Shown: positions 62,021 to 64,000 of the stretch, piece by piece
Layout of the letters: each line of letters begins with the position of its first letter
Numbering within the stretch: position 1 is the stretch's first letter
Source of the DNA: Kofleriaceae bacterium
GTDB lineage: Bacteria; Myxococcota_A; Polyangia; Haliangiales; Haliangiaceae
Direction of reading: 5' to 3'
Assembly (NCBI GenBank): GCA_020633495.1
Contig: JACKDR010000001.1
Location: 438,105 to 502,104, forward strand
Length of the DNA stretch: 64,000 nt
Position numbers and translations under genes: made by a program
Notes under the pieces: model-generated
Seen by the model: the letters and a program-made list of their open reading frames with translations, nothing else
Database searches by the model: none
What the model was told of the DNA's origin: nothing

Positions 62021-62400
62021 CACGGATCTCCTTGTTCTCTGCTCGCTTCGCAAACGACTGCCAGGACGCTCGGCCGGTGGGCCGCGTCAAGGCTTGCGCG
62101 AAGGTGCAGACGAGATCGACATGACGAAGAGCTAGCTATCATGGGAGCGCGGGGCGCGCCAGGAGGAAGCGGAGGATGCAGTGCATGGGTGGGTGACCTC
62201 AGTCCTCCGGACTCATCGTCGCGCGAGTTGGATCTGCTGCCGCGAAGAGAACGTCTTGCTTCGAATCCGGTCCGTCCGTCTCGTCGCTATCGCGGCTCCC
62301 ATCCGTCCACAAGCGCGAGAGTCTAAGTTAGTTGATCGAACGTGCTCCAGATCTCGGTTCTTTGTTGCCCGCAACTCGGGTTCGCGGCCAGAATGCAGGC

Positions 62401-63153
62401 ATGTCGCGGAGTTCCATCGAGTGGACGGACGAGACGTGGAACCCGGTGACCGGGTGCGAGAAGGTCTCGCCTGGCTGCAAACACTGCTACGCGGAACGCT
62501 TTGCTGAGCGGTTCCGAGGCGTGGACGGTCATCCATACCAGCAGGGCTTCGATCCCCAGCTTCGCCCTGATCGAGTCGAACAACCGCGGGCCTGGAAGTC
62601 ACCACGCATGGTGTTCGTGAACAGCATGAGCGACCTATTTGGCGACTTTGTACCTGATTCGTATCTCGCGAAAGTCTTCAGGGTGATGCGAGACACGCCG
62701 CAGCACACGTACCAGATTCTGACGAAGCGCGCAGAACGCCTGGAGACATGGACGCGTTCGCAGCGCTGGCTCTTGACCGCGTCGAACATATGGCTCGGCG
62801 TATCTGTTGAGGACAGGAAGTACGGCGTTCCGCGGATCGGGCATCTTCAGAAAGCCAATGCCGCCTGTCGGTTTCTCTCTGTCGAGCCGTTGCTGGAAGG
62901 GCTTGGCACTCTCGACCTTGCGAAGATCGACTGGGTAATCGCGGGTGGAGAGAGCGGGCCCGGTGCGCGTCCGATGCAACTCGAATGGGTGCGTAGCGTC
63001 CGCGATCAGTGCATCAAGAAGCGGGTCGCGTTCTTCTTCAAGCAATGGGGGGGCGTCCAGAAACACCGAAGCGGCCGAGTGCTGGACGGTCGAACGTGGG
63101 ACGAGATTCCCGAAAGGTCTCGACTAGAACAGTCTCCCCTGGCCGCTCGGTAG
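62401..63153 (+). CDS. phage Gp37/Gp68-family protein (DUF5131, three-Cys motif) in a low-GC island
   Basis: [28 protein letters not shown] hallmark; local GC ~55-60% against ~73% for the window. Confidence 0.8.
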   Translation: [250 protein letters not shown]

Positions 63154-63996
63154 CTTGGCGGTGATGCTGTTCCAGATCTTGTCGCCGAGCGAATCCTTGG
63201 ACGCGAAGACTAGGTGGTAGAGCACCACCTGTTGCATGTTCTTGATGGACGGGTACGTCACGTCCCCGCGCTCCGGGTAACCGAGCATGGCGAGTTGGCG
63301 GCGAAAGAGTGGAATCAGCAGGCGCACGTCGTCTCCATGGACGATGTCAACACCCCATCTCGAGCGCGGCAGACCCAGGAATCCCTCGAAGCGCTCGTGC
63401 TCGAGGAAGTTGCGCTTCATCGACCCAAGTGGAAAGTGGATAATGAGATCCATCCGGGGAAACGCGGCGAGCTTACGGATCGTCTCGAATTTCAGGTTAC
63501 TTGCCCCGAATGGATCGATCAGCGCGACCGCGAACCCGTTGGGTGGGATCTTGCCCACAACCTTGTCAATGGTCTGGTTGCAGTCTCCTCCGATGATCGT
63601 GACGCGTTTGTCCCCTTCGGTGCGCTTCTGAAGGGCGGCGATGTTCTCCTCATCGATGTCGCACAAGATAATGTCCGTGAAGCCGTGTTCCCGGTGCGGG
63701 ATGCTCGTCGCGATGAGGGGACTCCCGTCGATGAACTCCACTGGTTCACGGACGCGGGCCTTCCCTGGACCCGCGAAGAGATCGATCAACGCCGTGCCAC
63801 CCGTCCCTTTTGGGGGCATGAATCGCGCACGTACGTTGCGGGTCGCGGCGAGGTAATTGCGCAAATAGTGGTGCTTGTCCTTCGCCCACACTCCCACGCA
63901 CTGGACCGGGAGCTGATCGATCGGATCGACAGCGGCGGTGCAGTTGCCGTTCCTCTTCTCGCACTTCTTCATGTTGCCCACTCCAGGCATTAGCAT
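63124..63996 (-). CDS. TcmP-like three-Cys-motif partner protein, SAM-methyltransferase-like fold
   Basis: LIDLFAGPG (MTase motif I-like) and IDPFG (motif IV-like); convergent with the DUF5131 gene, overlapping it by 30 nt. Confidence 0.65.
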   Translation of the reverse strand: MLMPGVGNMKKCEKRNGNCTAAVDPIDQLPVQCVGVWAKDKHHYLRNYLAATRNVRARFMPPKGTGGTALIDLFAGPGKARVREPVEFIDGSPLIATSIPHREHGFTDIILCDIDEENIAALQKRTEGDKRVTIIGGDCNQTIDKVVGKIPPNGFAVALIDPFGASNLKFETIRKLAAFPRMDLIIHFPLGSMKRNFLEHERFEGFLGLPRSRWGVDIVHGDDVRLLIPLFRRQLAMLGYPERGDVTYPSIKNMQQVVLYHLVFASKDSLGDKIWNSITAKLPSGQGRLF

Positions 63997-64000
63997 ACGC

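What the first reader, a model, noticed from the sequence alone, without database searches (positions are those of the whole stretch)
62130..64000. Low-GC island with a Gp37/Gp68 (DUF5131, three-Cys) protein and a convergent, overlapping TcmP-like methyltransferase-fold partner
GC content drops from ~73% to ~55-60% at about 62.1 kb and stays low to the window end. The island encodes the DUF5131 hallmark [27 protein letters not shown] and, convergent with a 30-nt overlap, a TcmP-like protein with SAM-MTase-like motifs (LIDLFAGPG and IDPFG). This pairing is characteristic of phage or defence-island cargo of unknown function; a possible DNA or nucleotide modification role is my speculation. The island is truncated by the window, so more cargo probably lies beyond 64000. 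It sits next to the PrfH-like gene and the MoxR/SNF2 block, so the whole 48-64 kb region may be one accessory neighbourhood.
Basis: partly seen in the sequence, partly recalled or inferred. Interest (0 to 1): 0.65.

Follow-up and report, generated by a model that had tools for sequence, protein, structure and literature searches.

The report
Imported radical-SAM plus methyltransferase gene pair
A complete 2-kb piece of foreign DNA in a myxobacterial genome carries two partner genes, a radical-SAM-type enzyme (DUF5131) and a methyltransferase-like protein (TcmP); databases already name this pair, but its function, probably chemical marking of DNA, has never been tested.

Summary
GC falls from 75% to 60% at about 62.0 kb (z = -4.7). 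The DUF5131 gene (62401-63153, +) and the TcmP gene (63972-63124, -) are intact and converge with a 30-nt overlap.

The prediction of more cargo beyond the window is wrong. An identical contig (L001) extends 1.5 kb further. It shows GC returning to 78% about 80-130 nt past the window end, followed by a host-type HNH gene. The island is therefore a complete two-gene cassette of about 2.05 kb, with no integrase, tRNA or flanking repeats.

The modelled DUF5131 fold is closest to spore photoproduct lyase, a DNA-acting radical SAM enzyme. TcmP is closest to the m6A methyltransferase RlmJ and keeps the SAM-binding and D-P-(F/Y) motifs across its family.

The pairing is strong: 59 of 65 TcmP loci carry an adjacent radical-SAM-type gene. 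Tail-to-tail orientation is conserved in this clade and recurs in prophages beside the immunity repressor.

NCBI already names both genes. PADLOC lists the pair as untested defence candidates (PDC-M41/M30).

My best reading is a mobile SAM-dependent DNA-modification module, and I have low confidence in its biological role. It is a new member of a known but uncharacterised kind.

The adjacent release-factor-like gene carries a conserved prfB-style +1 frameshift site and deserves its own study.

The parts
62021..62400 (.). Left arm of the island. This is a 380-nt non-coding stretch at GC 0.62, lying between the start of the release-factor-like gene (ATG at 62020, - strand) and the DUF5131 start. 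It presumably holds the DUF5131 promoter.
   Evidence: GC 0.616. No credible ORF, no sigma-70-like site, no terminator and no Rfam match. Sequence read.
62401..63153 (+). DUF5131 (phage Gp37/Gp68 family) gene, 250 aa. It is a divergent radical-SAM-superfamily protein. An upstream TTG at 62332 is an unlikely alternative start.
62455..62490 (+). Three-Cys motif C19-x6-C26-x2-C29-Y ([12 protein letters not shown]), the presumed [4Fe-4S] ligands.
   Evidence: Translation. C19, C26 and C29 are invariant in 56 homologues.
63124..63153 (.). 30-nt tail-to-tail overlap of the two coding regions. There is no terminator between them.
   Evidence: Stop codons located. Overlaps of 33, 41, 44 and 44 nt, and one 3-nt gap, occur in the five closest relatives. 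The terminator scan was negative there.
63124..63972 (-). tcmP gene (three-Cys-motif partner protein), 282 aa. It is an RlmJ-like class I SAM methyltransferase fold with an N-terminal Cys-rich extension. An alternative ATG lies at 63996.
63763..63783 (-). Methyltransferase motif I, D64-L-F-A-G-P-G70 (SAM binding).
   Evidence: Translation. D64, F66, G68 and G70 are kept in at least 94% of 137 family members.
63505..63516 (-). Motif IV-like D153-P-F-G156, which aligns with the D164-P-P-Y motif of RlmJ.
   Evidence: Translation. D153 is kept in 137/137 members, P154 in 130/137, and F or Y at 155 in 92/137. Alignment to RlmJ ILIDPPYE.
63973..64000 (.). Start of the right arm. The tcmP upstream region continues about 128 nt beyond the window, to the stop of a host-type HNH gene at window-equivalent position 64129.
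   Evidence: L001 positions 1997-2152 are intergenic. GC rises from 0.60 to 0.785 across L001 1901-2300.

Best explanation
This is a complete, horizontally acquired two-gene cassette of about 2.05 kb. It encodes two SAM-using enzymes that most likely act together on nucleic acid, probably DNA.

Proposed mechanism:
- TcmP is an RlmJ-like amino-methyltransferase. It binds SAM, recognises the target and flips out a base, which it methylates or presents.
- DUF5131 is a small radical-SAM-type enzyme with a C-x6-C-x2-C iron-sulfur motif, and its fold is closest to spore photoproduct lyase. It performs radical chemistry at the same site.
- TcmP diverges fast and would set specificity. DUF5131 is strongly conserved and would be the catalytic engine.
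- The pair moves between genomes, plasmids and prophages as a unit. The mark it writes probably serves to tell self DNA from foreign DNA, either in defence or in protecting a mobile element.

Shown here: the gene content, the completeness of the island, its foreign composition, the folds, the conserved motifs and the pairing statistics.

Inferred: the substrate, the chemistry, the physical cooperation of the two proteins and the biological role.
For: Completeness and foreign origin:
- L001 extends the window and shows host GC on both sides.
- GC3 is 0.69 and 0.79 against 0.96 for the host, with z = -4.7 for overall GC.
- In 47 of 49 other loci the pair also has lower GC than its flanks.

DUF5131 as a radical-SAM-type enzyme:
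- The three Cys are invariant.
- NCBIfam gives a sub-threshold match to 'radical SAM mobile pair protein A' at 6.9e-22.
- RadicalSAM.org lists DUF5131 as Megacluster-5-2, beside spore photoproduct lyase (PMC9477430).

TcmP as a methyltransferase:
- RlmJ is the top match by two structure methods.
- hhalign aligns GSPLIA with GSPLIA and IDPFG with IDPPYE.
- Motif I, the acidic motif II residue (D or E at 105 in 134/137) and D153-P154 are kept family-wide.

Partnership:
- 59 of 65 TcmP loci with adequate flanks have an adjacent radical-SAM-type gene. Of these, 47 are DUF5131 and 12 are a canonical PF04055 protein of the PA0069/Rv2578c type.
- 48 of 73 viral DUF5131 loci have an adjacent TcmP.
- Pairwise identities of the two proteins correlate (Mantel r 0.32, p about 0.001).

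Link to DNA:
- TcmP-less viral DUF5131 genes sit beside Dam-type methylases in 3 loci and C5 DNA methylases in 3 loci.

Role:
- In the temperate Gordonia phages Easley and BaxterFox the pair lies in the immunity cassette, with tcmP directly downstream of the repressor.
- Close relatives sit beside an MmeI-type restriction-modification gene, or beside NACHT, AAA_15/21 and serine recombinase genes.
- Both proteins match PADLOC PDC-M41/M30.
Against: - No activity of either family has been tested. PADLOC's PDC systems are explicitly untested, and the held literature has almost nothing on either family.
- TcmP's closest solved relatives, RlmJ and Trm1, modify RNA, not DNA.
- DUF5131 has neither the canonical C-x3-C-x2-C spacing nor a Pfam Radical_SAM match.
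- My scan of 97 neighbouring ORFs against PADLOC showed no visible excess of defence genes over a control set of 92 ORFs.
- 25 of 73 viral DUF5131 genes have no TcmP, so DUF5131 can work without this partner.
- In this window there is no mobile element or defence gene next to the cassette.
Confidence: 0.4

Rival explanations
1. A restriction-modification-like or toxin-antidote defence. DUF5131 is the effector and damages DNA lacking the mark, for example by radical-mediated strand or base damage. TcmP methylation protects the host's own DNA. Convergent transcription sets the balance between the two.
For: - A methyltransferase-plus-partner cassette with deviant GC is typical of mobile restriction-modification systems (established knowledge).
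- Tail-to-tail layout occurs in 22 of 101 pairs and in 6 of 6 members of this clade.
- In 5 viral loci an XRE-type HTH_3 gene sits 14-16 nt upstream of DUF5131, like the controller proteins of C-R operons.
- In Gordonia prophages tcmP follows the repressor and so is probably expressed in lysogens.
- The pair is a PADLOC candidate.
- DUF5131 without TcmP sometimes sits next to Dam or Dcm methylases, which could substitute for TcmP.
Against: - No nuclease domain is present.
- 19 of 25 TcmP-less viral DUF5131 genes have no methylase within 1.3 kb, which is hard to reconcile with a self-toxic effector.
- The conservation pattern is the reverse of the usual one. Here the 'methylase' diverges fast (26% mean identity) and the 'effector' is conserved (56%).
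- 78 of 101 pairs are simple co-directional operons.
- There is no defence-gene enrichment in my neighbour scan.
Confidence: 0.2
2. An RNA-modification pair. TcmP and DUF5131 would modify rRNA or tRNA, as RlmJ, Trm1 and the radical SAM methylases RlmN and Cfr do. This would change translation or confer resistance to a ribosome-targeting compound, and the pair would spread like the mobile cfr gene.
For: - One prophage DUF5131 is annotated 'RNA methyltransferase' (hit H23).
Against: - The top DUF5131 match is a DNA enzyme, spore photoproduct lyase.
- Neighbours include DNA methylases and restriction-modification genes.
- The location in prophage immunity cassettes fits DNA-level or infection-level functions better.
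- Adjacency to the release-factor-like gene is coincidental: 0 of 42 homologous loci carry the pair.
Confidence: 0.15
3. A neutral or decaying passenger. The cassette would be a recently landed remnant with no current function in this host.
For: It has no regulator, integrase or partner genes. No sigma-70-like promoter was detected.
Against: - Both ORFs are intact and full length.
- All catalytic-type residues are kept.
- The DUF5131 protein is 80-88% identical to relatives in other lineages, which indicates strong purifying selection.
- The promoter scan uses an E. coli-type consensus, so its negative result says little for a myxobacterium.
Confidence: 0.05
4. An assembly chimera or contaminant, with a low-GC fragment wrongly joined to a high-GC contig.
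For: The compositional switch is abrupt. Two short contigs, L001 and L002, begin at 61977 and 62132, close to the left boundary.
Against: L001 spans both junctions at 100% identity and continues into high-GC host-type sequence on each side. NCBI protein accessions on the 662-kb contig are consecutive across the junction: MCB9559175, 76 and 77.
Confidence: 0.02

Closest known systems
[quoted passage not shown]
   Same: Both proteins pass the curated thresholds, at 335 bits against 28.9 and 149.8 bits against 53. They are adjacent, as the family name implies. NCBI already annotates these very genes with these names: MCB9559176.1 and MCB9559177.1.
   Different: Here the genes converge and overlap by 30 nt. 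Most pairs are co-directional (78 of 101). This clade's TcmP also has an N-terminal Cys-rich extension that lies outside the TIGR04474 model: the match begins at residue 37 of the 290-aa form, and C4 and C11 are nearly invariant.
PADLOC phage defence candidates PDC-M41 and PDC-M30
   Same: DUF5131 matches PDC-M41B at 2.7e-105 and PDC-M30B at 2.3e-104. TcmP matches PDC-M41A at 5e-14.
   Different: The TcmP match is weak and partial, covering residues 35-200. These candidates came from guilt-by-embedding in BREX, DISARM and type I restriction-modification loci and are untested. This copy is not embedded in any defence system.
Spore photoproduct lyase (radical SAM DNA repair enzyme, PDB 4fhc)
   Different: Sequence identity is 12%, and a profile search finds no PDB hit. 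DUF5131 has 250 aa against 340. Its Cys spacing is C-x6-C-x2-C rather than C-x3-C-x2-C. No lesion-repair context is evident.
RlmJ (23S rRNA m6A2030 methyltransferase, Pfam PF04378, formerly DUF519)
   Different: Identity is 10-13%, and the window's TcmP has no Pfam hit. TcmP has a classical D-x-F-x-G-x-G motif I. It has an obligate radical SAM neighbour and is mobile, whereas RlmJ is a solitary housekeeping gene.
Controller-protein-regulated type II restriction-modification systems with convergent genes (for example Esp1396I; from my own knowledge, not tested here)
   Same: The architecture is similar: a methyltransferase convergent with its partner gene, and in 5 viral relatives a small XRE HTH gene directly upstream of the partner.
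   Different: There is no nuclease, and no HTH gene in this window. This is an analogy of gene layout only.
Radical SAM mobile pair proteins A and B (TIGR04471, TIGR04470)
   Same: DUF5131 matches TIGR04471 at 6.9e-22. The alternative TcmP partner matches TIGR04470 at 5e-10. All are small mobile two-gene sets built around radical-SAM-type proteins.
   Different: Scores are far below the cut-offs, at 78 against 355 and 39 against 410. These are related families, not the same ones.

Membership tests
Pfam PF07505 (DUF5131, Gp37/Gp68) | HMM score above the gathering threshold over the full length | tested here: met
   335.3 bits against 28.9, covering profile positions 2-243 of 243.
Pfam PF07505 (DUF5131, Gp37/Gp68) | Three-Cys motif near the N-terminus | tested here: met
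   C19, C26 and C29 ([12 protein letters not shown], 62455-62490) are invariant in 56 homologues.
NCBIfam TIGR04474 (TcmP) | HMM score above the curated cut-off | tested here: met
   149.8 bits against 53, covering profile positions 2-261 of 263.
NCBIfam TIGR04474 (TcmP) | Encoded next to a three-Cys-motif (DUF5131-type) protein | tested here: met
   The genes are adjacent and overlap by 30 nt. The same adjacency holds in 47 of 65 genome loci, and 12 more have a canonical radical SAM partner.
PADLOC PDC-M41 / PDC-M30 candidate defence system | Both component HMMs matched by adjacent genes | tested here: inconclusive
   Component B matches at 2.7e-105. Component A matches only at 5e-14 and partially. 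PADLOC's own system rules and thresholds were not available.
PADLOC PDC-M41 / PDC-M30 candidate defence system | Protection against phage | not testable with these tools
   The PDC systems are described as untested by their authors.
Radical SAM superfamily | Canonical C-x3-C-x2-C motif and a Pfam PF04055 match | tested here: not met
   The spacing is C-x6-C-x2-C. There is no PF04055 hit at E <= 0.01.
Radical SAM superfamily | Partial TIM-barrel fold shared with solved radical SAM enzymes | tested here: met
Radical SAM superfamily | A [4Fe-4S] cluster and reductive cleavage of SAM | not testable with these tools
   This needs anaerobic biochemistry.
Class I SAM-dependent methyltransferases (RlmJ-like) | Rossmann-type methyltransferase fold | tested here: met
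Class I SAM-dependent methyltransferases (RlmJ-like) | Conserved motif I (GxG), an acidic motif II residue, and motif IV D/N-P-P-Y/F | tested here: met
   D64-x-F-x-G-x-G70, D or E at 105 in 134/137, D153 in 137/137, P154 in 130/137, and F or Y at 155 in 92/137. Motif IV lacks the second Pro.
Class I SAM-dependent methyltransferases (RlmJ-like) | Membership of Pfam PF04378 (RlmJ) | tested here: not met
   The window's TcmP has no Pfam hit. Only 3 of the 120 listed homologues carry a precomputed hit. hhalign is local only, at E 1.4e-4 and probability 53%.
Classical restriction-modification system | A methyltransferase plus a nuclease-domain protein | tested here: not met
   There is no nuclease domain in either protein. 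The partner is a radical-SAM-type protein.
Integrative genomic island or prophage | An integrase, a tRNA target or flanking direct repeats | tested here: not met
   No tRNA. No convincing boundary repeats. The flanking genes are a release-factor-like gene and an HNH gene, not a recombinase. Only the compositional criterion is met.

The most novel reading that the evidence does not exclude
DUF5131 would be the effector of a new kind of restriction. It would be a small radical SAM enzyme, related to spore photoproduct lyase, that uses a 5'-deoxyadenosyl radical to damage or rewrite DNA bases. TcmP would flip these bases out or leave them unmarked, giving a nuclease-free, methylation-gated immune system that spreads as a 2-kb cassette.
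Probability: 0.15. Interest if true: 0.85.

Novelty: new member of a known kind. Interest (0 to 1): 0.38.

Why it matters
The DUF5131-TcmP pair is widespread in bacteria, archaea, plasmids and prophages. It is catalogued by Pfam, NCBIfam and PADLOC, yet nothing is known about what it does.

This copy is useful as a minimal, cleanly bounded example. The two genes alone travel as a unit into a 75%-GC genome, so the pair is probably self-sufficient.

The fold assignments give a concrete, testable hypothesis of SAM-dependent DNA marking. One protein is close to spore photoproduct lyase and the other to RlmJ, and both of those act on flipped-out bases. The assignments also point to tractable test systems: the Gordonia phages Easley and BaxterFox, where the pair sits in the immunity cassette.

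As a genome-scan finding, however, it is what standard annotation already reports.

Tried and rejected
- Island boundaries. I looked for direct or inverted repeats, tRNA genes, Rfam elements such as riboswitches, and promoters or terminators. Nothing was convincing.
- Empty-site search. The 42 metagenome loci with homologues of the flanking release-factor-like gene share at most 64% identity. None contains the neighbouring 201-aa or HNH genes, so no orthologous unoccupied site was found.
- Sequence searches of the PDB with single sequences and with profiles. No solved relative exists for either family.
- Apparent truncated DUF5131 (182 aa) in the close relative L083. I rejected this as a gene-calling artefact, because the full 250-aa frame is intact.
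- Fragmented DUF5131 next to an intact tcmP in L012. I did not use this as evidence, because that genome comes from a long-read assembly in which indel errors are likely.
- Defence-island enrichment. I scanned 97 ORFs flanking the pair in 36 genome loci against PADLOC, with 92 control ORFs from unrelated loci. Hits were similar and sparse in both sets, so I claim no enrichment.
- Functional link to the adjacent release-factor-like gene, for example via an N5-glutamine methylase idea. I rejected this, because the pair never accompanies that gene elsewhere.
- The exact 290-aa TcmP form is not on record. The 282-aa form is the one that gene callers predict.
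Full report
**1.

GC in the 62 one-kb windows before 62 kb averages 0.752 (sd 0.032, minimum 0.685). From 62021 to 64000 it is 0.603, which is z = -4.7. No other 2-kb stretch of the window falls below 0.694.

The contrast is sharper at third codon positions. The two island genes score 0.69 and 0.79, against a mean of 0.958 for 42 host-type ORFs.

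The + strand ORF 62401-63153 (250 aa from the ATG) matches Pfam DUF5131 (PF07505) at E = 2.7e-100 over the whole profile. [quoted passage not shown] Their stop codons give a 30-nt tail-to-tail overlap at 63124-63153.

**2. The island is complete, not truncated**

The exact DUF5131 protein occurs on two other contigs. One of them, L001, is a 3505-bp contig of the Myxococcales MAG GCA_020431345.1. It is 100% identical to window 61977-64000 and runs 1481 bp further.

In L001, GC climbs from 0.60 to 0.785 within about 200 nt of the tcmP start. The next gene is a high-GC 439-aa HNH/RuvA_C protein on the - strand. The foreign segment therefore spans about 62.02-64.1 kb, roughly 2.05 kb, and holds only the two genes.

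I found no tRNA, integrase, boundary repeat, Rfam element or terminator. L001 crosses both GC junctions, which argues against a chimeric join.

An exact look-up shows that the window belongs to a 662-kb contig of a Kofleriaceae MAG. NCBI already annotates three consecutive genes there:
- MCB9559175.1, 'PCRF domain-containing protein';
- MCB9559176.1, 'phage Gp37/Gp68 family protein';

**3. What the two proteins are**

*DUF5131.* In 56 homologues of 64-88% identity, about 90 of 250 positions are invariant, including C19, C26 and C29 (C-x6-C-x2-C). No solved structure is detectable by sequence or by profile.

DUF5131 does not have the canonical Cys spacing or a PF04055 hit. I call it a divergent radical-SAM-type protein, not a proven one.

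A profile-to-sequence comparison with E. coli RlmJ aligns TcmP GSPLIA with RlmJ GSPLIA, and ALIDPFG with ILIDPPYE (E 1.4e-4). Across 137 family members from bacteria, archaea and viral contigs, the following are kept:
- motif I, D-x-F-x-G-x-G;
- an acidic residue at position 105;
- D153 in 137/137 and P154 in 130/137;
- F or Y at position 155 in 92/137.

TcmP therefore looks like a competent SAM-dependent amino-methyltransferase of the RlmJ lineage. This clade adds an N-terminal Cys-rich extension.

**4. The pairing**

*TcmP-anchored survey.* I examined 80 genome loci. Of the 65 with adequate flanks, 47 have DUF5131 directly adjacent and one has it 1.4 kb away.

Twelve of the remaining 17 have, immediately downstream, a different 255-276-aa protein. 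It matches Pfam Radical_SAM above threshold and resembles the PA0069/Rv2578c families. So 59 of 65 TcmP genes have a radical-SAM-type neighbour.

*DUF5131-anchored survey.* I examined 80 viral contigs. Of 73 loci with flanks, 48 have an adjacent TcmP. Among the 25 without one, three have a Dam-type neighbour and three a C5 DNA methylase neighbour.

*All pairs together.* Over 101 pairs the layouts are T>D 42, D>T 36, convergent 22 and divergent 1. Layout follows phylogeny: 80 of 101 nearest neighbours share it.

DUF5131 is far more conserved than TcmP (mean identity 56% against 26%). The two distance matrices correlate modestly (r 0.32, Mantel p about 0.001).

The pair is lower in GC than its flanks in 47 of 49 loci.

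**5. The convergent layout**

All five closest relatives of the window's TcmP (56-77% identity) are also tail-to-tail. Four overlap by 33-44 nt and one has a 3-nt gap. The orientation is therefore conserved in this clade, while the exact overlap is not.

In viral contigs, 15 of 48 pairs are convergent, usually with a 4-nt overlap.

In the temperate Gordonia phages Easley and BaxterFox the order is integrase, HTH, metalloprotease, DUF5131 on the + strand, TcmP on the - strand, then the immunity repressor on the - strand. Here tcmP lies directly downstream of the repressor. Both phage partners pass TIGR04474.

Five viral loci have an XRE-type HTH_3 gene 14-16 nt upstream of DUF5131. This layout recalls controller-protein restriction-modification operons, an analogy drawn from my own knowledge. 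The window has no such gene.

**6. Context and role**

Some close relatives lie in plausible defence or mobile contexts:
- an MmeI-type restriction-modification gene plus a helicase-methylase;
- NACHT, a serine recombinase, DUF4145 and an AAA_15/21 ATPase;
- MerR/MerT and a Peptidase_M78 gene.

Another relative sits among ordinary efflux and two-component genes.

PADLOC matches both proteins to PDC-M41/M30. These candidates were derived by 'guilt-by-embedding' in BREX, DISARM and type I restriction-modification loci, and their authors describe them as untested (bioRxiv 10.1101/2024.01.29.577857).

My own crude test compared 97 neighbouring ORFs with 92 control ORFs against PADLOC. It showed no visible enrichment. 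A defence role therefore remains a hypothesis. The held literature contains essentially nothing functional on either family.

**7. The surroundings in the window**

The region from 48.5 to 60.7 kb encodes:
- an AAA_5 (MoxR-type) ATPase, DUF5682, a VWA_CoxE protein, a SWIM protein and a HEAT protein;
- an SNF2/DUF3670 helicase;
- a SWIM-like protein with a Lys/Pro-rich tail.

All have host-type GC and GC3. The release-factor-like gene to the left also has host composition. Its homologues in 42 other loci never have the pair nearby. The 'single accessory neighbourhood' idea is not supported by composition.

**8. Mechanism**

The best-supported reading is a self-contained, mobile, two-enzyme SAM-dependent module acting on nucleic acid, probably DNA. 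TcmP would provide target recognition, base flipping and N-methylation. DUF5131 would provide radical chemistry. I put my confidence at about 0.4.

The rivals are:
- a methylation-gated, nuclease-free restriction system in which DUF5131 is the weapon (0.2);
- an RNA-modifying pair (0.15);
- a neutral passenger (0.05);
- an assembly artefact (0.02).

Folds, motifs and pairing are shown. Substrate, chemistry, complex formation and role are inferred.

**9. Verdict**

The finding is correct in its facts, over-extended in its predictions, and already captured by standard annotation. It is a new, unusually minimal member of a known but functionally uncharacterised gene pair.

The most unexpected thing in the area lies just outside the finding. 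The neighbouring release-factor-like gene is split by a prfB-type +1 frameshift cassette that is conserved across its family.

Noticed in passing
window 61342-62020 (- strand); frameshift site at about 61898-61904: The 'PrfH-like' gene is split into two frames. On the coding strand the junction reads GGAGG CGA CTT TGA C. That is a Shine-Dalgarno-like element, a 3-nt spacer and CUU UGA C, which is the classical prfB (RF2) programmed +1 frameshift cassette. The spliced product is 225 aa. It lacks release-factor domain 1, has an RF1-type PxT motif (PPT) and GGQ, and scores better against prfA than the downstream ORF alone (209.9 against 182.8 bits). It is far below the prfH cut-off. In about 24 of about 26 family members from metagenomes the same position carries CTT T(GA/AG/AA): 13 UGA, 10 UAG and 1 UAA. 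NCBI annotates only the 195-aa downstream ORF. The 2006 RFH paper (PMC1586002) describes no frameshifting outside RF2.
   Followed up: partly
L086 4001-4729 (+), which is Gordonia phage BaxterFox NC_031226.1 32209-32937: A full-length DUF5131 gene is encoded on the + strand. It is 50.6% identical to the window's protein and matches PADLOC PDC-M41B at 2.2e-110. The record does not annotate it and instead lists small - strand ORFs (genes 39-41) over it. This is probably a mis-annotation. In phage Easley the equivalent gene, gp38, is annotated.
   Followed up: partly
L018-L032 and L038 (for example L020 7041-7949 and 7951-8718): A TcmP clade in Nitrospirota, Omnitrophota and deltaproteobacterial MAGs is paired with a canonical Pfam Radical_SAM protein rather than with DUF5131. 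This partner resembles the PA0069/Rv2578c families, has the motif C-x3-C-x3-C-Y, and always lies immediately downstream. The partner has therefore been swapped within the radical SAM superfamily.
   Followed up: partly
window 48483-56326 (+): A host-GC five-gene cluster encodes an AAA_5 (MoxR-type) ATPase, DUF5682 (837 aa), a VWA_CoxE protein, a SWIM-finger protein and a HEAT-repeat protein. An SNF2/DUF3670 helicase follows at 56771-59608. The function is unknown, and the composition shows it is not part of the island.
   Followed up: partly
window about 54780-54810: The reading frame with coding-type GC3 from about 53344 loses that signal near 54784, yet has no stop codon until 56199. Coding-type GC3 resumes in another frame at 54809-56326. 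This could be a frameshift, whether real, programmed or a sequencing error, or a mis-placed gene boundary between the SWIM and HEAT genes.
   Followed up: no
window 59677-60729 (+), especially 60300-60730: A SWIM-like protein (CSCPDYATMCKH) with no Pfam hit ends in a long Lys/Pro/Ala/Thr-rich low-complexity tail (KPKPKPKPK, KTKTKTK). This produces a strong AT-skew spike of 0.75-0.89 and a local GC dip to 0.64.
   Followed up: no
L001 2153-3472 (-), window-equivalent 64129-65448: The first gene beyond the window is a high-GC 439-aa protein with an HNH nuclease motif and a RuvA_C-like C-terminus. It has a weak similarity to the IscB HNH region (7.3e-9, far below the cut-off). It is the island's right-hand neighbour.
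   Followed up: partly
L128 4630-4980, L134 4589-4981, L139 4605-4979, L140 4605-4979 and L146 4646-4981: In one group of viral contigs a 112-130-aa XRE-type HTH_3 protein is encoded 14-16 nt upstream of DUF5131 and on the same strand, with TcmP convergent. This layout is like the controller-protein operons of restriction-modification systems. The window lacks it.
   Followed up: partly
PADLOC model PDLC04134 (mad2): This model matched 3 of 97 and 4 of 92 unrelated ORFs in two independent sets at E down to 1e-26. The weak mad2 hit of the window's TcmP (E 0.0039) should not be read as evidence of relationship to MADS systems.
   Followed up: no
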